Source: Octopus vulgaris
Lineage: Eukaryota
Length of the DNA stretch: 64,000 nucleotides
Assembly: GCA_951406725.2 (NCBI GenBank)
Contig: OX597835.1
Span: 50,716,001-50,780,000, forward strand
Direction of reading: 5' to 3'
The notes below the pieces were generated by a model. That model ran no database searches. It saw only the letters and a program-made list of their open reading frames with translations, and was not told the DNA's origin. Shown here piece by piece: positions 2,846 through 64,000 of this stretch; the stretch's first letter is position 1, and every line of letters begins with the position of its first letter. The position numbers and the translations under genes are program-made.

Positions 2846-3387
2846 ACTCATGTAAATACCCAGGTCACGCACTGATTGTGCCTCTGGGATTGCAATTCCT
2901 CCGGGTCCAGTGTATTCATTGGGTATTGCATTTAGTTTTGCATGCTGATAGCATAAAGCTTGAAACTTTTCAGCATTGAACTGCATGCTATTCTTTTCAG
3001 CCCACTTGTATATTTTGTCCAGCTCACATTGCAGGCGTTTAGTGTCCTCAGGGTTCTGTATTGCCTGTGAAACTTTTGTATCATCTGCATAACTTGTGAT
3101 CGTGGCTCTCTGGGTGGCTGAGGGCATGTCTGAGAGGGCCATTATGAACAGTAGTGGTCCCAAAACAGTTCCCTGCGGAACACCGCTCACTATTTGCGTG
3201 TTAATGGAAGTGGCCCCATTGGCTACTACCACCTGACTTCTATCTTTCAGAAAGTCATGAAGCCATTCTCCCAGTTTTCCAACTATGTTGAGATCACGCA
3301 GTTTGTGACATATCATCCCATGATCGACTTTATCAAAGGCCTTTGCAAAGTCGAGATATATCACTTCCACATTTGAGTGGTTGAGCA
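2846..3387 (-). mobile_element. CR1-like LINE reverse transcriptase fragment
   Basis: [23 protein letters not shown] and SYADDTK at the end of ORF 2792..5263; near-identical to about 9904-10437 on the plus strand. Confidence 0.92.
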
Positions 3388-3484
3388 TATATATATATAT
3401 ACATATACATACATACATATATATACATATACATACATATATATACATATACATACATACATATATATACATACATACATACAT

Positions 3485-3517
<33 letters not shown>

Positions 3518-3533
3518 CATACATACATACATA

Positions 3534-3565
<32 letters not shown>

Positions 3566-4500
3566 CATACATACATACATACATATATATACATACATAC
3601 ATACATATACATATACATACATACATACATACATATATATACATATACATACATATATATATATACATATATATATATACATATACATACATATATATAT
3701 ACATATACATACATACATATATATACATATACATACATACATATTTATACATATACATACATATATATATATACATATATATACATACATACATATATAT
3801 ACATATACATACATACATACATATATATACATATACATACATACATATATATACATATACATACATACATATATATACATATACATACATACATATATAT
3901 ACATATACATACATATACATACATATATATACATATACATACATATATATACATATACATACATATATATACATATACATACATATACATACATATATAT
4001 ACATATACATACATATACATACATATACATACATACATATATATATATATACATATACATACATACATATATATATATATACATATACATACATATATAT
4101 ACATATACATACATATATACACATATACATACATATATATATATACATATACACATATACATACATATATATATATACATATACACATATACATACATAT
4201 ATATATATACATATACACATATACATACATATATATATATACATATACACATATACATACATATATATATATACATATACACATATACATACATATATAT
4301 ATATACATATACACATATACATACATATATATATATACATATACACATATACATACATATATATATACATATACACATATACATACATATATATATATAC
4401 ATATACATATATATATACATATACATACATATATATATATACATATACATACATATATATATATACATATACATACATATATATATATACATATACATAC

Positions 4501-4555
<55 letters not shown>

Positions 4556-5268
4556 CATACATATATATATATACATATACATACATATATATATATACAT
4601 ATACATACATATATATATATATACATACATATATATATATATACATATACATACATATATATATATACATATACATACATATATATATATATACATATAC
4701 ATACATATATATATATATACATATACATACATATATATATATATACATATACATACATATATATATATATACATATACATACATATATATATATACATAT
4801 ACATACATATATATATACATATACATACATACATATACATACATATATGTATATATACATATATACATACATATATATACATATACATACATATACATAT
4901 ACATATATATACATATATATACATATACATATATATACATACATACATATATATACATACATATACATACATATATATACATACATATACATATATATAC
5001 CATATACATACATATACATATACATACATATACATACATATACATACATATACATATATATACATATACATACATATACATACATATACATATACATATA
5101 TATACATATATATATACATATATACATATATATATATACATATATATATATACATATATATATACATATATATATATACATATATATATATACATATATA
5201 TATATACATATATATATATAAATATATATATACATATATATATATACATATATATATATACATATATA
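3388..5268. repeat. Compound (TA)n/(TACA)n microsatellite, about 1.9 kb
   Basis: Visible directly; it produces stop-free Y/I/H/T and M/Y/V/C pseudo-ORFs. Confidence 0.99.
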
Positions 5269-5966
5269 TCCTTAAATCCTTAAAAATGTTTTAGCCCGAA
5301 GGCCGTGGCCATGCTGGGGCACCACCGCTGAATGAGCTACACTAGTTTGTGAATCCACCTCTGATACGTGGCACTTGATCAACAAGGGAGTTCGATGCTG
5401 CTGCCCGCATCCGTGTCTCCTGTCGTGAGGTAGGTTCATCTGGGACTCCCAACAAGAAGAGATCCAGTTTAGTTTTAAAGAAACCCACATCCACACCATG
5501 TAAGTCTCTCAGGCATTTAGGGAGGATGTTAAAGAGCTGTGGTCCTCTGAAACCCAAGCTGTTGCAGTATCTGGACCTGTATTTTGATGGTGATGTTGGA
5601 ATCCTTGGCACCACGCAGCGGCGCCCGTTCTGCGGTTGGATTAACTTTGAATGCCAAAGTTTGGGACAAGACCCTCCAGGATTTTCCAGATGTATATCAC
5701 TGCATATCTCTCCCGCCTCCGCTCCAGGGAGAAGAGGTTTAATACCTTCAGTCTTTCCCAGTAGCTGACATTTTGCATTGAGACGATTTTCTTTGTGTAG
5801 CTTCTCTGAGTTGCTTCGAGTTCTGCTGTTTGTTTTATATTGTGTGGTGACCAAAGTTTGGAGCAGTAGTCCAAGCGGCTGAGGACAAATGTTTTCCATA
5901 GGACCATCAGTGTCTCCTTCTCTCTTGTTCTGAAAGTTCGGAGAATCCATCCAGCTAGCCGTCTGC
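5269..5966 (-). mobile_element. CR1-like LINE 3' end (5'-truncated, related subfamily)
   Basis: [35 protein letters not shown]...SLERRRERY...[14 protein letters not shown] is homologous to 10480-11100; the 3' UTR motif GGTGCCCCAGCATGGCCAC and a short tandem tail are present. Confidence 0.9.
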
Positions 5967-7747: not shown

Positions 7748-7778
7748 TATATATATATATATATATATATATACATAC

Positions 7779-7811
<33 letters not shown>

Positions 7812-9080
7812 CATACATATATACATATATACATATATGTACGTATATATATATACATATATGTACGTATATATATATACATATATGTACGTATATATAT
7901 ATACATATATGTACGTATATATATATACATATATGTACATATATATATATACATATATGTACATATATATATACATATATGTACATATATATATACATAT
8001 ATGTACATATATATATACATATATGTACATATATATATACATATATGTACATATATATATAACATATATGTACATATATATATACATATATGTACATATA
8101 TATATACATATATGTACATATATATATATATGTACATATATGTACATATATATACATATATGTACATATATATATACATATATGTACATATATATATACA
8201 TATATGTACATATATATACATATATGTACATATATATACATATATGTACATATATATATACATATATGTACATATATATATACATATATGTACATATATA
8301 TATACATATATGTACATATATATATACATATATGTACATATATATATACATATATGTACATATATATATACATATATGTACATATATATATACATATATG
8401 TACATATATATACATATATGTACATATATATACATATATGTACATATATATACATATATGTACATATATATACATATATATACATATATGTACATATATA
8501 TACATATATGTACATATATGTACATATATGTACATATATATACATATATATACATATATATACATATATATACATATATATATACACATATATACACATA
8601 TATACATATATGTACATATATATACACATATATACATATATGTACATATATATACATATATATACATATATATATACACATATATACACATATATACACA
8701 TATATATACACATATATACATATATATATACATATATATACACATATATATACATATATATACACATATATATACACATATATATACACATATATATACA
8801 CATATATACATATGTATACATATATATACATATATATACATATATATACACATATATACACATATATATACATATATATACACATATATATACACACATA
8901 TATACACACATATACACATATATACACACATATATATACACATATATACACACATATATACACATACATATATACACATATATATATACATATATACACA
9001 CATATATATACACATACATATACATATATATACATATATATACACATATATACACATATATACATATATATATACATATA
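7748..9080. repeat. Compound TA microsatellite with a roughly 22-bp higher-order unit (ACATATATGTACATATATATAT)
   Basis: Visible directly. Confidence 0.98.
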
Positions 9081-9121
9081 TATTCTTGATAAGTCATACA
9101 ATGACGAAAACCGGTTGAATA
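9081..9121 (+). ncRNA. Minimal type I hammerhead ribozyme-like motif (Penelope type), variant core
   Basis: TATTC-TTGATAA-GTCAT(aca)ATGAC-GAAAA-CCGG-TT-GAATA gives stem I TATTC/GAATA, stem II GTCAT/ATGAC and a palindromic stem III. The core has U3/A8 instead of C3/G8, plus one extra A. Confidence 0.55.
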
Positions 9122-12246: not shown

Positions 12247-14144
12247 CTCTTTCTCTTCGTCTTTGTCCCTCTTCTTTCTTACTCTGCTACTCACTTCAAC
12301 TATACCTCCTCTGCTTAACATTCTTTATTTCTCTTTCTTCTTTCTACCTCTCCCTTCAACTGTAGCAAAGTACCATCCACAGCCCTTTGCTGAGAGAGAG
12401 ACAGAGAGTGTGTTAGAGAGAGAGAGACAAACAGAATAACTGTCAGACAGATAAGCAACATTTCTTTTTGCAATTTCCATATTTTCAACAGTTTTATCAT
12501 ATATTGTTGAAAACAAAAAGTTTTCCAGCATTTCCTGTATGAGAATGGGTTCCATTCTCTTTCACTATTATTCCCTATCCACTTCCTTCCTTCACTCAAT
12601 CTATCTCTTTAAATCTCTCTCGTTTCCTCCTCCTTCCCCTCTCCTTTATGTTTCCTTGCTTGTTCTCTCAGCGCTATCAATCTCCTGTCTCTCTCACTCC
12701 CTCCGCTTTGTCTCTCACTTCAACTATACTTCCTCTGCTTCTGTCCCTCCCCTCTCTCCCGCTTTGCCACTCACTTCAAGTAAACCTCCTCTGCTTAATG
12801 TTTTACTTCTCATTTTCTTTGTACCTCTCTCTTCAACCTCTTTACCTCTTCCTTAAGTGTGACACACACCACAGGTATGTACAAAAACAAAAAAAATTAG
12901 CATATTAATTTTACCTTTTATTGAAGCAGAATTTTTTTTTTTTTTAAATATCTTTTAGATTGCTTTCCTACGGAAAGCGTACTTTCCTACGGAAAAATTT
13001 CCTATGCAGCGAACTTTCCTACAGCCCAAAATCCTGAGGCAAAAATATTTGCAGCAAACTTTCCAGATATGCTGTCATGATATGTAACTGTCGGATTTTA
13101 ATGAAAACTACATGAGAAGAAAATTCACATCCAAAACTTTCAAATGATATATAATTTTCCATTGAAACGATTTATTTTGACATGAAAATGATAAAGCAAA
13201 CAATGTGTTTTTTCATGTTCAAACTGTGCTTGTCTCCATTGTACAGCGCTCTAATGGCCACAGTTTCACTTAGCTTTTCAATTATTTTTTTTAAATAATG
13301 AATTTATTTTGATAAGTATCATTACGAATATGGTGCTTGAAACAAATTAACATGAAATTTTGATGGGAGGTTTCAATTTAGATCTCTTAGAACCAGAGAC
13401 AGTCTCAGACAGGTTGGTCACAAAACAGTTAAAAAAGGGTAAATGTAACTGCTGATGTCCATCCCTATATTCATTTAAAAAATTGGGCAACAATGAAAGC
13501 AGACAAATAGGGAAATGTGTTTTTGCAAAAGAAACAGTTGAAAATTTTCCAAATCAAAAAACAGAAATGAATGATAGAAGGGATTAAAGATTTCTTCCTT
13601 ACATTAGAGTACTTCCTCGTTTCCTTTAAAATGAATGTAAATAAGGTTAGTATGATACTCATCCTATCATGTATTTCAGGACAGGCTAACTGATGCAATA
13701 TCATGCTATATTGTGTCATATAAGTTGAGAGTGAATGAAGTCAAGGGATTGGAATATAACGGAAAAAAAAAAAAAATGAATTCAGGGTTTTACAAGAACA
13801 GAAAGTTGATGTTAGCAGTTCATTAAAAAGGCAAAATTTACCAATGCCTACAAAAACATTCATTATAAAGACAAAATATTAGAATTTTATTAAGCTTTAA
13901 AGTTTCTAGCATTTTTGTTTTGTTACTGAACAGATATTTTTATAAACTTTCTATTGCCTTCCTTTTATTTTTTTTATATATGAGCAACAGAACTGGTTGC
14001 TTTTTTTCTCTTCTAAATTGCTTTCTATGATATTTTCATTCTAAATGCCTATTCTTATCTGCTTTCCTGTTTTCTGTTGAACTATAATCATAACTTGCTG
14101 TGTGTGAAATGCTTTATGCAATAGCTAAAGTGCTTTTGTCATAT

Positions 14145-35151: not shown

Positions 35152-35845
35152 TGGGATGATGTGGTGAAGCACAACCTTCAAACATTGGGCCTCACAGAAG
35201 CGATGACAAGTGACTGAGACCTTTGGCGATATGCTGTGCTTGAGAAGACCCAGCAAGTCAAGTGAGACTGTAACCATGGCCTATGCCAGTGCAACATAAC
35301 CAGCCCATTTAAGAGTACCCTCCAATCATTGGGCAATAAACTGCGCATGCAAAGACCTGTTGAGGCAAGTGAAGTCATTGTTGTAGTTGATAACAGTACT
35401 GCCTGATTGGCACCCATGCTGGTGGCACATAAAAGGCACCATTCACGTGTGGTCGATGCCAGTGCTGCTTGACTGGTCTCATGCTGGTGGCACATAAAAC
35501 GCATCATTCAAGTGTGGTCGATGCCAGTGCTGGCTGACTGGCTCCATGTTGGTAGTACGTAAAAAGCACCATTCGAGTGTGGACATTGCCAGTGCCACCT
35601 GACAGGCTCCTGTGCTAGTGACATGTAAAAAGCACCATTCAAGCATGGTCAATGCCAGTACTGCCTGACTGGCCTGCGTTCCAGTGGTATGTAAAACATT
35701 CCTAAGGAGTGGTTGGCATTAGGAAGGGCATCCAGCTGTAGAAACTTTGCCAGATCAGATTGGAGCCTGGTGCAGCCTTCTGGATTACCAGCTCTCAAAC
35801 TTTCTGATCCATGGAAAGTGGATGTTAAACAATGACGATGATGAC
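35152..35845 (+). mobile_element. RTE-LINE 3' end with roughly 60-bp tandem repeats in the 3' UTR
   Basis: Reverse-complement homologue of 39195-39880 and 54867-55570; it ends gttaaacaatgacgatgatgac. Confidence 0.85.
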
Positions 35846-39194: not shown

Positions 39195-42000
39195 GTCCGT
39201 TTTCCATGCTGGCATGGGTTGGACAATTTGACTGAGGACTGGTGAACCAGATGGCTGCACCAGTCTCCAATCTGATCTGGCAGAGTTTCTACAGCTGGAT
39301 GCCCTTCCTAACACCAACCACTTTGAAAATGTAGCAGGTGCTTTTACGTGCCACTGGCATGAGGGCCAGTCAGGCAGTACTGGCAACGGCCATGCTCAAA
39401 TGGTGTTTTTTACGTGCTACCTGCACAGGAGCCAGTCCAACAGCATTGGCAAAGACCTCACTCAAATGCTTTTTCACGTGCCACCGGCACAAGTGCCAGT
39501 ACAGCAATGCTGGTAATGCTCATGTTCGAATGGTGCTTTTTACGTACCACCAGCACAGAAGCCAGTCAGCTGCTCTGGCAATGATCATGCTCGGATGGTG
39601 CTCTTAGCGCTCCACTAGCACAGATGCTAGTCATCAAATTTGATTTCGATTTCACTTGCCTCAACAGGTCTTCATAAGCAGAGTTTAGTGTCCAATGAAG
39701 GAAAGGTATGTATAAGTGGGCTGGTTACAGTTCTGGCATAGACCACGAGGTTATGGTCTCACTTGGCTTGCTGGGTCTTCTCAAGCACAGCATATTTTCA
39801 AAGGTCCCAGTCACTACTCATTGCCTCGGTGAGACCTAATGTTCGAAGGTCGTGCATCACCACCTCATCCCAGGTCTTCGTGGGTCTACCTCTTCCACAG
39901 GTTCTCTCAGCGGCTCGGGTGGCACTTTTTCATACAGCTATCCTCATTCATTCGCACCACATGACCATACCAGCGCAGTCGTCTCTCTTGCACACCACAT
40001 CTGATGCTTCCTAGGTTCAACTTTTCTGTCAAGGTACTTAACACTCTGTCCAGTATGCACACTAACATTATACATACATCGGAGCATACTGACTTCATTC
40101 CTTGCAAGCTTACGCATGTCCTCAGCAGTCACAGCCTATGTTTCACTGCCATGTAGCATAGCTGTTCGTACACAAGCGTCATACAGTCTGCCTTTTACTC
40201 TGAGCGAGAGGCCCTTTGTCACCAGAAGAGGTAAGAGCTCTTTGAACTTTGCCCAAGCTATTCTTATTCTAGCAGCTACACTTTCAGCGCACCCCACTCC
40301 GCTACTGACTTGGTCCCCTAGGTAACGAAAGCTATCAACTACTTCTAGTTTTTCTCCCTGGAATGTAGCGGAAGATGATCTCTGCGCATTTTCAGTGTTT
40401 ATTGCTCCTGAGCATCTGCCACATACAAAAACTATCTTCCCCGTTAGCCTCCCTTTGATATTGCTGCACCTCTTATGTGTCAATAGATTACACTGGATAC
40501 ATCTTATGAAGTTTCTACTTATGCCTTTTCTACAGATCGAGCAGGGCCATCTACCTGAAGGGATTTGTGGTTTGGCTGCCTTCCTACTTATTAGGACTTT
40601 GGTTTTAGCTAGTTTAACTCTAAGGCCCTTCGATTCTAATCCTTGCTTCCATGTCTGAAACTTCTCTAGTTCTGACAGTGACTCAGCAATTAGAGCAAGG
40701 TCGTCAGCATAAAGGAGCTCCCAGGGGCATTCTGTTATTGCCTGGAGGACTATGATAAATAGGAAGGGGCTGAGGACTGAACCTTGGTGGACCCCTACCT
40801 CTACCTGGAATTCTTCACTGTACTCATTGCCAACCTTCACCTTACTGACAGCATCCCTGTACATGGCTTGCACAGCTCTCACTAACCATTCTTCTATCCT
40901 TAGTTTCCTCATTGACCACCAGATAAAGGATTGGGGGACCCTGTCAAAAGCTTTCTCCATGTCAAAGAAAGCCAAGTACAGAGGTTTATCTTTGGCCAGG
41001 TGTTTCTCCTGCAGCTGTCTTACCAGAAATATAGCATCAGTGGTGCTTTTCCCTGGCACAAAACCAAACTGCATCTCCTCTAAACTGACTCTCTCCCTAA
41101 TTAGTTGGGCTATGACCCTCTCCGTTACCTTCATTACCTGATCCAATAACTTGATACCTCTGTAATTATTTGTATCTAAAGCGTCATCTTTATCTTTGTA
41201 GCAGTTGACTATTATGCTGCTACACCAAACATTGGGTATGACTCCTTCGTGTATCACCTGGTTAACTATATGGGTGACTAAGCTATAGCCGACACCGCCA
41301 GATATTTTGAGCATCTCTGCAGTGAATCCTGTTGGGCCGGGGGCTTTTCCTGTCTTCATACCTATTTCTTTATTACCCACAAGGGGCTAAATATAGAGGG
41401 GACAAACAAGGACAGACATAGGTATTAAGTCGATTATATCGACCCCAGTGCGTAACTGGTACTTAATTTATCGACCCCAAAAGGATGAAAGGCAAAGTCG
41501 AGCTCGGCGGAATTTGAACTCAACGTAACGACAGACGAAATATGGCTACGCATTTAGCCCGGCATGCTAACGTTTCTGCCAGCTTGCCACCTTCATACCC
41601 TTAATTACTTTATCCACCAAGGTACTGTCAACTCGGATAGCTGGTCCCTCTCTTGGGTCGACATTCGGCAGACTCCCTTTCTCCCATTCATTTTCTTTAT
41701 TCAGCAACCTTTCATAGTGGCGTCTCCAAACCTCTCTCTTTGCAGCCTCGTTTAGTGCAAGTGAACAATCATCTATGAGGACACATTTCTCTCCTACAAC
41801 ATCACGATTCTCATTCACACACTGTCTTGCAACATGAAATATCTCAAGTCTTTGGTCCTCGCAGCACAGAACATTGGCAAATTGTTTTCTTATCTGCTTC
41901 CCCTCTGGCTAAATAAACCTGTCTCCTAGCTTTCCTTCAGGCAGTCTGATACAATTCCCTGCTACCACCATTCTTCCAGTCCTTCTAAGCCTGTTTCTTT
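39195..42000 (-). mobile_element. RTE-clade LINE, 5'-truncated, interrupted by a SINE
   Basis: ORF 40136..41380 has KAPGP, NYRGIKLL, QFGFVPG, YADDL, FRYLG and LRWYGHV, followed by a repeat-bearing 3' UTR. Confidence 0.93.
41363..41590 (-). mobile_element. Young SINE nested in the RTE LINE
   Basis: TSD CTTCATACC at 41354-41362 and 41591-41599; the empty site is seen in the paralogue near 56620; CpGs are retained. Confidence 0.93.
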
Positions 42001-54866: not shown

Positions 54867-57800
54867 CATCATCATCATCATCATCGTTTAACATCCGCTT
54901 TCCATGCTGGCATGGGTTGGACGGTTTGACTGAGGACTGGTGAGCCAGATGGCTGCACTAGGCTCCAAAGTGATCTGGCAGAGTTTCTACAGCTGGATAC
55001 CCTTCCTAATGTCAACCACTCCGAGAGTGTAGTGGGTGCTTTTACATGCCACCAGCATGAGGGCCAGTCAGGCAGTACTGGCAACAACCATGCTCAAATG
55101 TTGTTTTTTATGTGCCACCTGCACAGGAGCCAGTCCAGTGGCACTGGCAACGACCTCACTCAAATGTTGTTTTTCACATGCCACCAGCACAAGTGCCAGT
55201 AAGGCGATGCTGGTTACGATCACACTAGAATAGTAATTTTTATGTGCCACCAGCACGGGAGTCAGTCAGGGACCCTGGCAATGATCACATTTGGATGGTG
55301 CTTTTAATGTTCCACTGGCAATGGCATTCAGGAAGTGCTATCATCGGCCACATCAGCAAAATTTAATTTCACTTGCCTCAACAGGTCTTCGCAAGCAATG
55401 CATAAGTAGGCTGGTTATGTGACACTGGTATAGGCCACAGGTTGTGGTTTCACTTGGCTTGCCAGGTCTTCTTAAGCACAGCATATTTCCAAAGGTCCTG
55501 GTCACTACTCATTGCCTCGGTGAGGCCCAACGTTCAAAGGTTGTGCTTCACCACCCTATCCCAGGTCTTCCTGGGTCTACCCCTTCCACAGATTCCCTCA
55601 ACTGCTAGGGTGTGACACTTTTTCACACAGCTGTCCTCATCCATTCGCACAACATGTCCATACCAGTGCAGTTGTCTCTCTTGCACACCACATCTGATGC
55701 TTCTTAGGTCCAACTTTTTCTCTCAAGGAGCTTATGCATATTGACATTACACATCCATTGGCTTCATTCCTTGCATGCTTACGCATGTCCTCAGCAGTCA
55801 CAGCCCATGTTTCACTGCTATGTAGCACGGCTGTTCGTACAGCATACCTTTTACTCTGAGCAAGAGGCCTTTTGTTGCCAGCAGAGGTAGGAGCTCTCTG
55901 ACCTTTGCCCAGGCTATTCTTATTCTAGCAGCTACACTTTCAGAGCATCCACCCTCGCTACTGACTTGGTCACCTAGGTAACGGAAGTCATCAACTATTA
56001 GTTTTTCCCCTGGAATGTGACTGAAGCTGTTCTCTGCAAATTTCCAGTGTTTATTGCTCCTGAGCATCTGCCACATGCAAAAACAATCTTCCCAGTTAAT
56101 ATTTCTGCACCTCTTATGTGTCCATAGCTTACACTGGGTACACCTTATGGAGTTTCTACCTACGCCTTTTCTACAGATCAAGCAGGGCCAACTACCTGAA
56201 GGGATTTGTGGTTTGTCTGCCTTCCTACTTATTAAGACTTTGGTTTTAGCTAGGTTGATTCTAAGGCCCTTACCAGAAATATAGCATCTTACCAAAAATA
56301 TAGCATCAGTGGTGCTTTTCCATGGCACAAACCCAAACTGCATCTCGTCTAGACTGACCCTCTCCCTAATTAGTTGGGCTACAACCCTCTCCATGACCTT
56401 CATTACTTGATCCAACAACTTGATACCTCTGTAATTGTTTGTATCTAAAGTGTCACCTTTACCTTTGTAGCAGTTGACTATAGTGCAACTTACACCAGTC
56501 ATTGTGTATGACTCCTTCATGTAACACCTGGTTGACTATATGAGTGACTAAGCTATAGCCAACACTGCCAGATATTTTGAGCATCACTGTGGTGATTCCT
56601 GATGGGCCGGGGCTTTTCCTGTCTTCATACCCTTAATTGCTTTATCTACTAAGGTACTGTCAATTCGGATAGCTGGTCCCTCTGTTGTGTCGGCATTCAG
56701 CAAGCTCTCCCAGTCATTCTCTTTATTCAGCAACCTTTCATAGTGGTGTCTCCAAACCTCTCTCTTTGTAGAATCATTTAATGCACGTGAACCATCATCC
56801 ACGTGAAAACATTTGCCTCCTATGACATCATGATTTTCTCTCACACACTGTCTCACAGCACGAAATACCTCAAGTTTTTGGTTTTTATGGCACAGAACAT
56901 TGGCAAATTTTTTCTTATCTGCTTCCCTGCTGGCTAAATAAACCTGTCTCCTAGCTTCCCTTTTGACAGTCAGATATGATTCCCTGCTACCACCGTTCTT
57001 CCAGTCCTTCCAAGCCTGTCTCTTTTCTCTAATAGCCCTGTCAACAACATTATTCCACCACCATATTACGTTGGGTCTAGAGGAGACTTTGTACAATCCA
57101 CAGATCTGGTCAGTGGCCCTCAACAGGTTGTCTCATAGAAACCTCCAGTTGTCTTCCACATCATGTAATGTTATATACCCCTCTATTTCATCAAAAGCTT
57201 TGAGTAAAATGTCTCTAAATCTCTGTCCATTCACAGGATCATTAAGCTTCCAGACTCTTCATCTTCATGCTGGTTGTCTTCTGGGCGACCATTTAGTTCT
57301 GATCCTGAAGTCGCTAACTACTAGTCTATGTGGGGTACATTCTTTGCCTTGGAAGGTTTTGGCATTTATAAGTAGCCATCTTTCCCTTTTCCTGGTGAGG
57401 ATGTAGTCAATCTGACTAGTGTGTCTAGGTGACTGCTAGGTTTCCTGAAGTTAGTATTGCAAACCATAAGATCATTTGCATCGCAGAACTCCAGCAGCCT
57501 GGTTCCCTCTTCATTGCAGGAACCAAAACCATAGCTTCCATGTATGCCATGGAAGCTCTCTGCTTGTTGTCCATTGTCCATTGAAATCACCAGCCACAAA
57601 GAGAATATCCCTGTCATTTGTCGACAAGGTAGTTAGTAAGAGGGTGTCATAAAATCAGTTTTCTGTCCATCAGGTAGCTCCAGCTGAGGAGCATAGGCCA
57701 AGATAATGGTTGCTAACCCATGGTGAGGCACTAATCTAATCTTAAGTATTCTATTGCAGACTCTGACTACCTTGATTACCTTATCAATCCATTTCTCTGC

Positions 57801-57980
57801 AAGAAGTATACCCACGCACCCGACCCCATCAGTGTTCCCTGCCTAGAAGATCTTGTATCTATGTTCTTTGCCTGTGAGGAACCGAGCAGGGCTTCATCTC
57901 CACCTTACTCCTTGGATACAGCACAAATCTACACATCTCTGTTCAAGCATCTCAACAATCTCACCAGACCTACCTTTCAG
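54867..57980 (-). mobile_element. Near full-length degenerate RTE-clade LINE (APE endonuclease to (GAT)n tail), RT core deleted
   Basis: LKGRSGEIVEMLEQRCVDLCCIQGVRW, AYAPQ, YGFGSCNEEGTRLLEFC, WWWNNVV, NYRGIKLL, the PHD finger, UTR repeats and the tail are present; the YADD region is missing. Confidence 0.92.
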
Positions 57981-59144: not shown

Positions 59145-59367
59145 TTATTCGGTCACTCCCAATCTAGAGTCTATAATCGCTTCGATGAACAGGAATAAAA
59201 TAAGGTACCGTAATGATAGAAATGATGACAGAAGTTTTAATGGAAAATTCATTAATGACATAGGAGATAGTAGTAATAGAAATAGTGCACCTTGTGAAAT
59301 CGATTATGAAAGAGGTATAAGAATGACTAATAACACAAATGATAATATGGATAATAATAATAATAAT

Positions 59368-59640
59368 AATAGGTATTAACACTTTAGCCGTCCCAGTTAT
59401 AAGTTACAGCTACAATATCCTTAACTGGACACTAAATGAACTGACCAAAATAGATAGGAAAACAAGAAAAATAATGACAGGATCTAGGATGCATCACCCA
59501 AAATCTGACATAGAAAGGCTATATATACAACGTATAGAAAGTGGTAGAGGCCTTATACAGCTGGAAAACTACTATAAAATAACCACCATAGGACAGCAAA
59601 AATATCTACTTCAGAAGGAAGGAAAACTGATACAAATAGT
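59368..59640 (+). mobile_element. Dong/R4-clade non-LTR retrotransposon fragment (post-RT thumb region)
   Basis: GINTLAVPVISYSYNILNWTLNELTKIDRKTRKIM...HHPKSDIERLYIQRIESGRGL is characteristic of R4/Dong; the 5' junction is in a (TAA)n run. Confidence 0.85.
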
Positions 59641-62600
59641 CTGACGTCTCAAGCATCTTACCGAACGATACCGGAGACATCCACTTGCCAACTGCTAGCC
59701 GTCAAAATAGTCTGGACCCCCTTGAGGTGCGACGGTCACCTAGAGCGTGACTATCCAGCGTGGGCCGACCCGTAAGCTCACGGGTCTGTTTCCGTTAACT
59801 TAGGGATCGGACCACGTCGTTGTATTTACCAGGTGTATATCGCCACAGACTCAGGGCGACTGACGGGTTCGGTCGCGGGTACATCCACGTGTACGTGGGC
59901 GATACCGCTAGCTTCGATTCGTTCTTTCTATATCGGGCACGGTAGCGCGGCGGAGCTCCGGTCGACTGGCGCAGGGCTGCCGCCATCGGTTCCTACCTAT
60001 ATTAGCCGCAGTTGTTATCTTTCGAGAATTTACGCTAAGGAACACGTCGATAGATAACAACTGCGGCTAGTATAGGTAGTGGCCGTCAGAGGTGGAGTTG
60101 CGCCATGCTTTCCCTGTTTCGGTTCGTTCTTTCGATATCGGGCAGGGTAGGGCGGCGGAGCAACGGGCGACCGGCGCAGGTATGCCGCTGGCGAGCCCGC
60201 GGCGCGTAGTCGAACAGGGAAAGGATGGCGCAACCCAACTACTGGCGGCCCATACCTATCCTAGCCGCAGTTATCTTTCGACGTTTTCCTTAGCGTAAAT
60301 TCCCTTGTATCTCGTGACAGCCTTCCGGCATCGGTCGCGGGTACGTCTACGTGTACGTGGGTTATACCGCGAGCTTAGATTCGTTCTTTCGATATCGAGC
60401 ATGGTAGTGCAGCGCGTAGTCGAACAGGGAAAACGAGGTGGCGTTAAAGCGGCGGCCACCCGCCGGGCTCACGGCGTCTCAGGCTGACGTCTCAGACATC
60501 ATGCCGAACGATCCCGGAGACATTCACCTGCAGACTGCTAGCACTCAATATAATCTGGAACCCCTTGGGGTGCGACGGCCACGTAGAGCGTGACTATCCA
60601 GCCGGGGCCGACCCACAAGGTTAAGGGTCTGATTTTTTTAACTTACGGGTCGGACCGCGTCACTGTATTTACCCGGTGCATATCGCCAAAGACTCCCGGT
60701 GACTGACGGCATCGGGAATTTGTGGGACGGACCACGTCACTGTATATTTCGATACCGGGCACGGTAACGCGGCGGAGCAACGGTCGACCGGTGCAGACCT
60801 GCAGCTGGCGGCCCCGCGGCGCGTCGTCGAACAGGGAAAGAAAGGTGGCGTTAAAGCGGCGGTCATTCGTCGGGCTCACGGTGTCTCAGACATCATGCCG
60901 AACGATCCCGGAGACATTCACCTGCAGACTGCTAGCCCTCAATATAGTCTGGAACCCCTTGGGGTGCGACGGTCACCTAGAGCGTTACTATCCAGCCGGG
61001 GCAGACCCACAAGCTTAAGGGTCTGATTTTTTTACCTTATGGGTCGGACCACGTCGCTGTATTTACCCGTTGCATACATGGCTACTGATGGCATCGGGAA
61101 TTTACGGGATAGACCATGTCACTGAATCGACCGCATGTACCTTTCGATATTAAGCACGGTACGTGGGCGATACCTCGAGCTTCGATTCGTTCTTACTAGG
61201 TCGGGCACAGTAACGCAGCGAAGCTCCAGGCGACTCCGCAAACCCTGCCGCTGTCGGTCCCTACCTATACTAGCCAGTTGTTATCTTTTGGGAATATTCG
61301 GGAGGGAGCACGTCGCTGTATTGACCGCGTGTATTTCGTGACAGAGATCCGGCATCGTTAGCGGCTACGCCCCGCGGACGTGGGCGATACCGCGAGCTTA
61401 AGTTCGTTCTTTCGATATCGGGAACGGTAGCAAGGCGGAGCAACGGGCGACTGGTGCAGGGCTGCCGCTGGCGACCACGCGACGCGTAGTCGAACGGTGA
61501 AATCAAGGCGGCGTGAAGGTGGCGGCGACCCGACGGGCTGACGGCGTCTTAGGCTGACGTCTCAGCTATTTTGCCGAACGATCCCGGAGACATCAACCTT
61601 CCGACTGCTAGGCCTCAATATAGTCTGGACCCCCTTTGGGTGTGACGGTCACCTAGAGCGTGACTGTCCAGCCTGGGCCGACCCGTCAGCTAACGGGTCT
61701 GTTTCCGTTAACTTTCGGGTCGGACCACGTGCATATCGCCACAGACTCTCGGCGACTGACGGGATCGGTCGCGGCTACGTACACGTGTGCATGGGCGGTA
61801 CTGCTAGCTTCGATTTGTTCTAACTAGATAATGCACGCTAGCGAGGCGGTGCTCCGGGCGACTGGGGCAGGTCTGCCGCTGGCAGCGCCTACCTATACCA
61901 GCCGCAGTAGTCATCTTTCATGAATTTACGGGACCGACCACGTCGCTGTATCGACTGCGTGTATTTCATGACAGAGATCCGGCATCGGTCGCGGGTACGT
62001 CCAAGTGTACGTGGGCGATACCGCTAGCTTAGGTTCGGTCTTTCGATATCGGGCAGGGTTGCGCGGCGGAGCAACGGGCGACCGGCGCAGGCCTGGCGCT
62101 GGTTGCGCAGGCCTGGCGCTGGCGGTGCAGGCGGCACGTAGTCGAAAGGTGAAAGCAAGATGGCGTGAAGGCGGCGGCCACATTACTGGCTGACGGCGTC
62201 TTAGGCTGACGTGTCAGGCATCTTGACTCTCTACCTGCCGACCGACCGGCCGAACTCGTGTTGGATATCGAGAACTCGGCTCAGAACTCGCCCCAGAACT
62301 CGCCGCTTCGTGCCTCGTCGATAACACTGATAACACACGGATACACTCAATCGTTGTCTTCGTCGATAACGTCGTATACTACTCAGACTCTCTAACTTCC
62401 GAACGACCGGCCGCACTCGTGCTCGATACCGCTCCCGACGGTATCCAGCTCACGTTCCCTGTTACTGGGTGAACAATCCAACGCTTTGCGAATTCTGCTT
62501 CGCAATGATAAGAAGAGCCGACAACGTAGGATCAAAAAGCGACATCAAGAGGCGGGCAAAGGCGGACATCAAGAGGCGGGCGAAGGCGGATGTGAAGATG

Positions 62601-64000
62601 CGGTGAAGGCGAGCGTCAAAAGGCGGGCGAACGCTGCGTCTGAAAGGCAGGCGGTGTGGCGGCGGAAATTCGAGGACGCGCCAGCCGCGTAGAGTCGATC
62701 TTGCACCGGCAAACGGGGAGCTAACCGTTGGCAGAAATGGGCGACGAGAAAATCCCTTTCAGACGGTCACCTATGCCGATCAGCCACAACCCTACATAGA
62801 AGTCTGGACCCCCTTGGGGTGCGACGGCCACCTAGAGCGTGACTATCCAGCGGTGGCCGACCCACAAGCTTACGGGTCTGATTTTTTTAACTTACGGGTC
62901 GGACCACGTTGCTGTATTTACCCGGTGCATATCGCGTAGTCAAACAGCGAAACAAGGCGGCGTGAAGGCGGCGGCCACCCGCGGGCTGACGGCATCTTAG
63001 GCCGACGTGTCAGGCACCTTGTCAAACGATGCCGGAGACATCCACCTGCTGACTGCTAGCCCTTAATATAGTCTATACCCCCTTGGGATGAGACGGCCAC
63101 CTCGAGCATGAATATCCGGCGTGCGCCGACCCGTAAGCTCACGGGTCTGTTTCCGTTAAGTCACAGGTCGGACCACGTCATTGTATTTACCCGGTGCATA
63201 TCGCCACAGACTCCCGGCGACTGATTGTATCGGTCGCGGCTTACGTCCACGTGTGCGTGTGCGATACTGCTAGCTTCGATTCGTACTTACTAGATCATGC
63301 ACGGTAGCGCAGAGGAGCGCCAGGCGACTTGCGCAGGCCAGCCGCTGGCAGCACCTACCTATACTAGCCCCAGTTGTCATCATTCAGGAATTTACGTGAA
63401 GGAACACGTCGCTGTATTGACCGCGTGTATCTCGTGACAGCCTTCTGACATCGGTCGCGGCTACGTCCAAGTGTACGTGGGCGATCACGCGAGCATAGGT
63501 TCGTTCTTTTGATATCCGGCACGATAGCGCGGCGGAACAACGGGCGACCGAAGCAGGTCTGTCGCTGGCGGCGCTGCGGCGATTAGTCGAAACGTGAAAG
63601 CAAGATGGCGTGAAGGCGATGGCCACACGCCGGGCTCATGGCGTCTTAGGCTGACGTGTAAGGCATCTTGACGAACGATGCCGGAGACATCCACCAGCCA
63701 AATTCTAGCCCTCAATATAGTTCGGACCCCCTTGGGGTGCGACGGTCAACTAGAGCGTGACTATCCAGCGTGGGCCGACCCGTAAACTCACGGGTTGGTT
63801 TCCGTTAACTTACGGGTCGGTCCACGTCGTTGTATTTACCCGGTGCATATCGCCACAGACTCCAGGCGACTGAAGGGATCGGTCGCGGCTACGTCCATGT
63901 GTACGTTTGTGATACCGCAAGCTTCGATTCGGTTTTACTAGATCGGGCAAGGTAGCGCGGAGGAGTTCCGGGCGACTGGCGCAGGCCTGGCGCAAACGTC
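59641..64000. repeat. GC/CpG-rich complex tandem repeat (unit about 650-680 bp, rearranged), running off the window end
   Basis: The core AGTCTGGACCCCCTTGGGGTGCGACGGTCACCTAGAGCGTGACTATCCAGC recurs at about 59709, 60553, 60946, 61622, 62801, 63070 and 63719. Confidence 0.95.
62432..62546 (-). pseudogene. Degenerate 28S rRNA fragment (domain V, peptidyl-transferase centre)
   Basis: The minus strand reads GTCGCTTTTTGATCCT.CG.TGTCGGCTCTTC.TATCATTGCGAAGCAGAATTCGC.AAGCGTTGGATTGTTCACCCA.TAA.AGGGAACGTGAGCTGG, the conserved eukaryotic LSU rRNA sequence with several substitutions and a small deletion. Confidence 0.93.

What the first reader, a model, noticed from the sequence alone, without database searches (positions are those of the whole stretch)
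62432..62546. Isolated 28S rRNA peptidyl-transferase-centre fragment inside the array
Seen: 115 bp of LSU rRNA domain V (about H89-H93, including the A-loop region) on the minus strand, with substitutions at normally invariant positions and no other recognisable rRNA nearby. It joins a 24-bp repeat through the shared word GACATC. Inference: either the array is rDNA-associated, or the fragment was captured by a retroelement or repeat. Plus-strand transcription would yield RNA antisense to the catalytic core of the ribosome.
Basis: partly seen in the sequence, partly recalled or inferred. Interest (0 to 1): 0.7.

Follow-up and report, generated by a model that had tools for sequence, protein, structure and literature searches.

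The report
Decayed ribosomal DNA scrap in repeat
A broken 115-letter piece of a ribosomal RNA gene sits inside a GC-rich repeat array that is likely a stray, decaying copy of the spacer between ribosomal genes in what is probably an octopus genome, an ordinary kind of genomic debris.

Summary
The fragment is real. Rfam LSU_rRNA_eukarya scores it at 95.3 bits (E 9e-24), minus strand; 94 of 102 core letters match the consensus, six changes fall on conserved positions, and there is a 4-letter gap. At the one site shown, high-depth contigs carry the canonical base, so this is a decayed copy. It is not isolated among unique DNA: both flanks belong to a very abundant CpG-rich repeat family found in three DNA runs of two organisms, and the listed loose ends show forms of both flanks without 28S. 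Best reading (0.62): a displaced, twice-deleted rDNA unit inside an array derived from the rDNA spacer. On the minus strand it reads: units with a weak start-site-like motif, a segment found in deep contigs of a presumed RNA run, sense 28S, spacer-like subrepeats. Both joints look like DNA repair: a 6-letter shared word on one side, a 10/11 fold-back stem on the other. No A-tail, target-site duplication or R2 site was found. Physical linkage to 18S/28S genes is not shown. Nothing supports antisense transcription. A known kind of debris; low interest.

The parts
62432..62546 (-). Decayed 28S rRNA piece, domain V (peptidyl-transferase loop through the A-loop helix; helix names recalled), model about 2859-2977
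   Evidence: Rfam 95.3 bits; high-depth contigs carry the consensus base at 62511 in X1, X2 and X6 (table 3)
62421..62449 (.). Fold-back stem at the left junction: arms 62421-62431 and 62439-62449, 10 of 11 paired, 7-letter loop; the gap and one change of the 28S tail lie in the right arm
   Evidence: I7; the only 10/11 stem with a loop of 3-12 letters in the 4.4-kb array, P 0.002 in 20,000 shuffles of a 60-letter window
62541..62546 (+). Six-letter word shared by the 28S end and the 24-bp repeat (microhomology, inferred)
   Evidence: sequence; an X21 contig has non-28S sequence in front of this word (table 7)
62541..62631 (+). 24-bp repeat, 3.8 copies, related to the tail of the array unit
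   Evidence: local score 41 against unit 63538-63635, reached by 0 of 300 shuffles
62632..62800 (.). Segment found once in the window but abundant in contigs; contiguous with the array block 62801-62935; external-transcribed-spacer-like by inference
   Evidence: X21 record 21 (depth 1040) covers 62643-62835; X1 record 7, X2 record 11 and X6 record 27 cover 62685-62935 (table 8); not rRNA
62225..62431 (.). Two 46-bp direct repeats 161 apart with three 12-mers between; spacer-subrepeat-like by inference
   Evidence: D2, D5; deep contigs over 62283-62356 in X1, X2 and X6 (table 2); not rRNA
59637..64000 (.). Array of about 650-680-bp units with internal modules, deletions and one inverted block; GC 58%, CpG o/e 1.27; runs off the window end
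   Evidence: a shared 135-bp block is 74-93% identical among 7 copies
63355..63363 (-). TATAGGTAG, a weak look-alike of an arthropod Pol I start-site consensus (copy 1)
61889..61897 (-). same motif (copy 2)
61261..61269 (-). same motif (copy 3)
59993..60001 (-). same motif (copy 4)
60026..60302 (.). Inverted (fold-back) block of array sequence, holding the only plus-strand copy of the motif (60071-60079)
   Evidence: self-inverted BLAST hits 59993-60079 and 60026-60302

Best explanation
The 115-bp stretch is a mutated piece of 28S rDNA, and it is likely the remnant of one displaced ribosomal DNA unit that lost almost all of its gene in two deletions and now decays inside an array likely derived from the rDNA spacer. 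Shown: the piece is 28S, it is mutated at conserved sites, and both flanks belong to an abundant repeat family. Inferred: that family is the intergenic and external transcribed spacer of this animal's rDNA. Read on the minus strand, the locus would be spacer-promoter units, the start of the 5' transcribed spacer (62935-62547), a jump at the word GACATC into 28S domain V, a second jump at a fold-back stem into spacer subrepeats (62431-62225), then units again: the order of an rDNA repeat with its middle cut out. The joints were likely made by microhomology- and hairpin-guided DNA repair or template switching, not by reverse transcription. The piece likely has no function.
For: (1) Host-type but decayed: at 62511 contigs with the consensus base make up 50,391 of 50,706 depth in X1, 13,028 of 13,040 in X2 and 76,099 of 76,149 in X6. 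(2) Both flanks are abundant repeat: 879, 477 and 1,513 contigs were laid on 1.1 kb in X1, X2 and X6, with summed depths up to 1e5-8e5, while listed contigs with 0-2 differences from the window have depth 26-66. (3) In X2, 19 of the 22 listed sites from 62649 to 62889 have depth 9,714-12,342, close to 13,040 at the 28S site 62511; a hint only. (4) Two contigs of X21 (RNA is a guess), depth 1,040 and 1,717, cover 62643-62835 and 62658-62768. (5) GC 58% and CpG o/e 1.27 against 35% and 0.34 in the flank; mussel spacers are CpG islands with subrepeats (PMC6730533, passages). (6) Nested repeats of 12, 24, 161 and about 650-680 bp; stick-insect spacers have 530-bp repeats, each with a spacer promoter (PMC2590618, passages). 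(7) All 5 exact TATAGGTAG matches in 64 kb lie in the array, 4 on the 28S sense strand and 1 in the inverted block. (8) No BLAST hit of the array in the other 59.6 kb. (9) Junction scars (loose ends) resemble SD-MMEJ products (PMC2943611, abstract).
Against: No contig or record links the repeat family to an 18S or 28S gene, and no genome was available. Contig depth is by the tool's own statement no copy number; in X1 and X6 the same 22 sites scatter from 2,361 to 335,303 and from 1,914 to 669,273. The start-site motif is weak: one mismatch only if the hyphen in TA-TATANGRRRR (PMC2048585, passages) is read as one free base, which 6-10% of shuffled units also reach; the strict form needs 2-3 mismatches, and at 3 mismatches 99-100% of shuffles match too. 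The copies are not independent. The putative mussel start site has no match within 3 mismatches. The presumed transcribed-spacer segment folds no better than shuffles (z +0.77). Octopus transposons are also CpG-dense and unmethylated (PMC9476566, passages), so CpG content does not discriminate. No listed contig bridges the left junction.
Confidence: 0.62

Rival explanations
1. The array is a satellite or non-autonomous repeat family unrelated to rDNA. A short patch copied from rDNA or rRNA was pasted into one copy once, during break repair.
For: The piece occurs in 1 of 5 unit intervals; loose ends show both flanks without 28S; the junction scars fit a templated repair patch equally well; linkage to rRNA genes is not shown; the promoter motif is near chance.
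Against: Such patches are rare per kilobase (109 LSU fragments in the human reference; PMC4994717, section 9 part 1), so finding one in a 4.4-kb array favours kinship with rDNA (inference). The X2 depth plateau near the 28S value and the deep contigs in the presumed RNA run would then be coincidences.
Confidence: 0.25
2. The 28S piece is a fixed module of a composite mobile element or higher-order repeat (SINE28-like, or the 28S-like end of an R2-type element) and recurs with the same junctions.
For: X2 record 11 (depth 28) carries 62522-62698 with 2 differences, joined to an inverted, 10%-diverged copy of 62685-62935; X1 record 7 and X6 record 27 align over the same 62685-62935 span with the same 10 gaps. 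A sister copy or allele of the right junction may therefore exist. Some R2 families carry 28S-like sequence in the 3' UTR (PMC5035012, section 14).
Against: Record 11 has only 25 letters on the 28S side, under the tool's 31-letter rule for bridging, a different left neighbour and low depth. No A-tail and no target-site duplication. No R2-site primer match. No coding frame with a Pfam hit next to it (62607-62936).
Confidence: 0.06
3. The left part of the insert is an assembly chimera or a private rearrangement.
For: No run holds half of the 78 sampled words (best 0.42). At 62184 and 62281 every laid contig in X1, X2 and X6 differs from the window. X2 record 11 leaves the window's path at 62522.
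Against: Contigs with 0-1 differences cover 62770-62909 and 62880-63050 (X2 records 13 and 15; X1 record 8). The piece carries point changes and a hairpin-matched edit, which a splice of real rDNA reads would not have. The tool removes human-like contigs, and contigs drop rare variants, so the missing cover proves nothing.
Confidence: 0.05
4. The locus is transcribed from the plus strand into an RNA antisense to the ribosome's catalytic core and has a regulatory role.
For: Only the geometry: the plus strand is complementary to 28S.
Against: Changes fall on conserved positions, as expected of neutral decay. The one promoter-like motif points the other way. The sigma-70 scan does not apply to an animal and was not run; no plus-strand promoter was looked for by other means.
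Confidence: 0.02

Closest known systems
Displaced, degrading rDNA units and rDNA-like fragments outside the arrays (human; PMC5381670, abstract read)
   Same: Degraded rRNA-gene sequence away from any intact gene, here likely together with spacer sequence.
   Different: Here almost all of the gene is missing (115 bp left) and the spacer-like part is tandemly repeated; the spacer identity is inferred.
Spacer-derived satellites (As51 of characiform fishes, PMC13170303, abstract and discussion; PpNATR76 of moss, PMC6302065, one passage)
   Same: A tandem family likely related to rDNA spacer subrepeats, found away from rRNA genes, with relatives in a presumed RNA run.
   Different: The unit is about 650-680 bp with internal modules, and linkage to rDNA was demonstrated in those papers but not here.
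Spacer-promoter repeats of arthropod rDNA (Bag530 of Bacillus stick insects; PMC2590618, passages)
   Same: Sub-kilobase repeat made of related subunits, with a start-site-like motif in most full units.
   Different: The motif match is near chance, the host is likely a mollusc, and this copy is rearranged and lies beside LINE remnants.
SINE28 (mammals; PMC4994717, abstract and section 9 part 1)
   Same: A fragment from about the last 550 nt of the LSU gene, of SINE size.
   Different: No A-rich tail, no target-site duplication, no dispersed copies shown.

Membership tests
rRNA pseudogene fragment | Significant homology to an rRNA gene | tested here: met
   95.3 bits, E 9e-24
rRNA pseudogene fragment | Truncated and changed at conserved positions | tested here: met
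   115 bp of a 3,401-column model; 6 changes at upper-case positions and a 4-letter gap
rRNA pseudogene fragment | Differs from the host's functional copy | tested here: met
   At the one site shown (62511), over 99% of contig depth carries the consensus base in 3 of 3 DNA runs; rows for the other sites were not shown (78 hidden)
rRNA pseudogene fragment | Changes break helices without compensation | tested here: inconclusive
   On Rfam's structure line 23 of 25 pairs hold; 62511 turns C-G into U-G; 62527, 62524, 62465 and 62461 are unpaired positions
rDNA spacer-derived array | Sequence homology to the species' own IGS or ETS, linked to 18S/28S genes | not testable with these tools
   No genome held; metagenome, viral and prokaryote scans gave only 2 chance hits
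rDNA spacer-derived array | Abundant master of rDNA-like copy number | tested here: inconclusive
   Abundance is clear; the X2 plateau is near the 28S value, but X1 and X6 scatter over 100-fold, and contig depth is no copy number
rDNA spacer-derived array | Nested subrepeats, GC- and CpG-rich | tested here: met
rDNA spacer-derived array | Pol I start-site motif on the rRNA sense strand | tested here: inconclusive
   3 one-mismatch hits, all on the minus strand, under a lenient reading; P about 0.04 per unit on that strand; no hit within one mismatch under the strict reading
SINE28 | Derived from about the last 500 nt of LSU | tested here: inconclusive
   Lies about 420-540 columns from the model's end
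SINE28 | 3' A-rich or simple-repeat tail | tested here: not met
   7 A in 40 letters
SINE28 | Target-site duplication | tested here: not met
   No shared 5-mer in the 25-letter flanks for 4 of 4 boundary pairs tried
SINE28 | Pol III transcription | not testable with these tools
   needs inhibitor experiments
R2-type 28S-targeting retrotransposon | 28S sequence of the R2 site at the junction | tested here: not met
   Published primer 28S_R-A (PMC5035012) has no match within 3 mismatches in the window
R2-type 28S-targeting retrotransposon | Adjacent reverse-transcriptase frame | tested here: not met
   The only frame of 100 codons or more touching the insert (62607-62939) has no Pfam hit; the nearest RT remnant ends at about 59636

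The most novel reading that the evidence does not exclude
The array is an ectopic cluster of cephalopod RNA polymerase I promoters, and the twice-deleted unit is a mini rDNA gene shared by at least two related organisms. It would still be read on the sense strand into a short RNA carrying a catalytically dead peptidyl-transferase centre, and it would reveal an arthropod-like start site (TATAGGTAG) in cephalopods.
Probability: 0.08. Interest if true: 0.5.

Novelty: new member of a known kind. Interest (0 to 1): 0.15.

Why it matters
Modest. If the reading holds, the array gives a candidate sequence for a cephalopod rDNA spacer and Pol I start site. Three paper searches listed no paper describing one, though most subscription papers are not in that library. 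It would also be a tidy example of how rDNA debris forms by repair-type deletions. The fragment itself is most likely functionless, and that it comes from the catalytic core needs no special explanation: that is the part of rDNA that stays recognisable after decay.

Tried and rejected
Rfam scans of 6 kb and 64 kb missed the fragment; the miRNA-like hits at 59987-60085 are far below their gathering scores and come from the fold-back inversion. A 20-letter array motif gave 2 metagenome loci, both 23-letter chance matches with no wider similarity, and 0 viral loci; a 26-letter motif gave 0 in prokaryote genomes. Four look-ups of earlier findings returned nothing. Folding 62620-62800 and 62225-62431 gave z +0.77 and +1.80, so no structure signal. 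Not counted as evidence, by the tools' own cautions: four presumed RNA runs of organism A hold 0.00 of the words and eight metatranscriptomes hold 0.04; X21 has no depth at 62394-62504 or 62949-63050 (human-like contigs are removed); the X21/X2 depth ratio has median 0.004 over 8 bins left of the 28S piece and 0.064 over 11 bins right of it, which fits a silent and a transcribed spacer, but contig depth cannot rank parts. A foreign-eukaryote origin was considered; deep contigs of all three DNA runs cover 62468-62504, so a host origin is simpler. A paper search for the 9-letter motif gave one unrelated paper. The search for other 28S target sites gave nothing usable, so elements with other 28S sites were not tested. 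The 46-bp repeat and 62632-62800 show no significant likeness to the unit. The supplementary promoter alignment of PMC2590618 was not opened; it may settle how the consensus should be read.

Full report
Observation. The fragment is there. A scan of 62380-62600 finds the eukaryotic LSU rRNA model on the minus strand at 95.3 bits, E 9e-24, model columns 2853-2984. Reading that alignment, homology runs from 62546 to about 62432. In the ungapped core (62546-62445) 94 of 102 letters equal the consensus, and 6 of the 8 differences fall on conserved (upper-case) positions. The tail has a 4-letter gap. By recalled E. coli numbering, the changes at 62527 and 62524 hit U2500 and A2503 and the gap removes G2583-U2586, which includes U2585; no call checked this numbering. 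On Rfam's structure line 23 of 25 pairs still hold, so the damage is mostly to single-stranded conserved residues. Small scans found no other rRNA at 59600-61000, 62200-62431, 62549-62830 or 62800-64000. The larger scans missed the fragment itself and say little about the rest of the window.

Setting. The window is an AT-rich animal genome with long (AT)n tracts and LINE remnants. A LINE frame at 56587-57132 has as its best of 2 hits a UniRef record labelled Octopus bimaculoides, 74% identical over 48% of the query, so the host is likely an octopus; this is a hint, not an identification. From 59637 to the window end lies an array with GC 58% and CpG o/e 1.27, against 35% and 0.34 at 12300-50000. 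Unit anchors are spaced 843, 394, 676, 1448 and 649 apart; a shared 135-bp block is 74-93% identical among 7 copies; one block is inverted. The 1448 interval holds a 576-bp stretch, 62225-62800: two 46-bp repeats 161 apart with three 12-mers, the 28S piece, 3.8 copies of a 24-mer, and 170 bp found once in the window. The 24-mer is a relative of the unit's own tail (0 of 300 shuffles).

Sequencing runs. Of 24 listed runs none holds half of the 78 words; the best are DNA runs of organism A (0.42, 0.36, 0.26). Four runs were laid on 61950-63050 at 80% likeness: X1 and X2 (organism A, two studies), X6 (organism B) and X21 (organism A, RNA guessed). All are contigs, so depth is no copy number and strand cannot be seen. 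First, the piece is a decayed host-type copy: at 62511 over 99% of depth carries the consensus base in all three DNA runs. Second, the flanks are not unique DNA: 879, 477 and 1,513 contigs were laid, with summed depth up to 1e5-8e5, against 26-66 for listed contigs with 0-2 differences from the window. Many listed differences are carried by nearly all of the depth, which points to one uniform master from which the window's copy has drifted (X21 records 21 and 22: 20 differences in 194 letters, 14 in 111). Third, contigs cross 62800/62801 (X21 record 21; X1 record 7; X2 record 11; X6 record 27), so 62632-62800 belongs with the array block. Fourth, both flanks also exist without 28S: an X21 contig has other sequence before the word at 62541, and six X6 contigs show the end of the 46-mer running into the 12-mers.

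One recurrence hint. X2 record 11 (475 bp, depth 28) carries 62522-62698 with 2 differences, joined to an inverted, diverged copy of 62685-62935. X1 record 7 and X6 record 27 align over that same span with the same 10 gaps. This may be a sister copy or an allele that shares the right junction. It has only 25 letters on the 28S side, under the tool's 31-letter rule, so I do not count it as bridging. No listed contig bridges the left junction, and at 62184 and 62281 all laid contigs differ from the window. The human-like filter, loss of rare variants, an allele and misassembly all remain possible there.

Junctions. On the right, the 28S end and the 24-mer share GACATC. On the left, the last 11 letters of the 46-mer pair with 62439-62449 at 10 of 11 positions around a 7-letter loop. 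This is the only such stem in the array, and 0.2% of 20,000 shuffles of the 60-letter junction window reach it. The 4-letter gap and one change of the 28S tail lie inside the right arm, and they are what make it complementary to the flank. [quoted passage not shown] There is no A-tail, no target-site duplication and no R2-site match.

What the array likely is. I favour the rDNA spacer. It is GC- and CpG-rich with nested subrepeats, as mussel spacers are (PMC6730533, passages). Its master is abundant and uniform; in X2, 19 of 22 listed sites have depth 9,714-12,342, near 13,040 at the 28S site. Deep contigs of it stand in the presumed RNA run (1,040 and 1,717). All 5 exact TATAGGTAG matches in 64 kb are in the array, 4 on the 28S sense strand, and they resemble the arthropod start-site consensus (PMC2590618 and PMC2048585, passages). 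On that strand the order is units, segment seen in X21, 28S, subrepeats, units, which is an rDNA repeat with two large deletions. A 28S patch is also far more likely in rDNA-derived sequence than in an unrelated repeat (inference; 109 LSU fragments in the human reference, PMC4994717).

What counts against it. No record links the master to 18S or 28S. In X1 and X6 the same 22 sites scatter over 100-fold. The motif needs a lenient reading and is reached by 6-10% of shuffled units; the strict form has no hit within one mismatch. The mussel start site is absent. The segment folds no better than shuffles. Octopus transposons are also CpG-dense (PMC9476566, passages). The labels 'transcribed spacer' and 'subrepeat' partly rest on the model they support. 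I put the reading at 0.62, an unrelated satellite with a one-off patch at 0.25, a composite mobile unit at 0.06, misassembly at 0.05 and a functional antisense RNA at 0.02.

Known kinds. Degraded rDNA with spacer outside the arrays is described in human (PMC5381670, abstract). Spacer-derived satellites are described in fishes and moss (PMC13170303, abstract and discussion; PMC6302065, one passage). Mobile elements carrying 28S pieces are reviewed in PMC10946416 (passages) and PMC5035012 (passages and section 14); this locus fails the SINE28 and R2 features that could be tested. Verdict: a real rRNA pseudogene fragment, likely part of rDNA-derived debris; a new member of a known kind, interest 0.15.

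Noticed in passing
window 59352-59636 (+): A truncated non-LTR reverse-transcriptase remnant starts right after a (TAA)n run and is cut where the array begins; 56 homologues, best 75% identical, many with PF00078. The likeness to R4/Dong elements is recalled, not tested.
   Followed up: partly
window 55798-57900 (-): Broken LINE with a weak RT hit and a weak PHD-finger hit (E 5.5e-4, below cut-off) in one frame; best homologue of a second frame is labelled Octopus bimaculoides.
   Followed up: partly
window 59993-60302: Fold-back inversion in the first array unit makes a long near-perfect hairpin that scores against miRNA models (39 bits, gathering 90). A second sign of template switching at this locus.
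   Followed up: partly
X2 record 11; X1 record 7; X6 record 27: An inverted, 10%-diverged copy of 62685-62935 with the same 10 gaps is seen in two organisms; in X2 it joins the last 25 letters of the 28S piece.
   Followed up: partly
window 35394-35673, 39342-39633, 55040-55200: Short tandem runs of a 65-66-bp unit at three places; likely tails of a dispersed SINE (recalled likeness to cephalopod SINEs).
   Followed up: no
window 3386-5269 and 7748-9083: Very long AT-rich microsatellite tracts of 1.9 and 1.3 kb.
   Followed up: no
window 62637-62647 and 62755-62765: Perfect 11-letter inverted repeat 107 letters apart in the segment next to the 24-mers; the segment as a whole folds no better than shuffles.
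   Followed up: partly
window 59709-63853: The 135-bp block falls loosely into two subtypes (60554, 60946 and 62801 at 89-93% to each other; the others mostly 82-91% among themselves), suggesting subrepeats that diverged before this array formed.
   Followed up: partly
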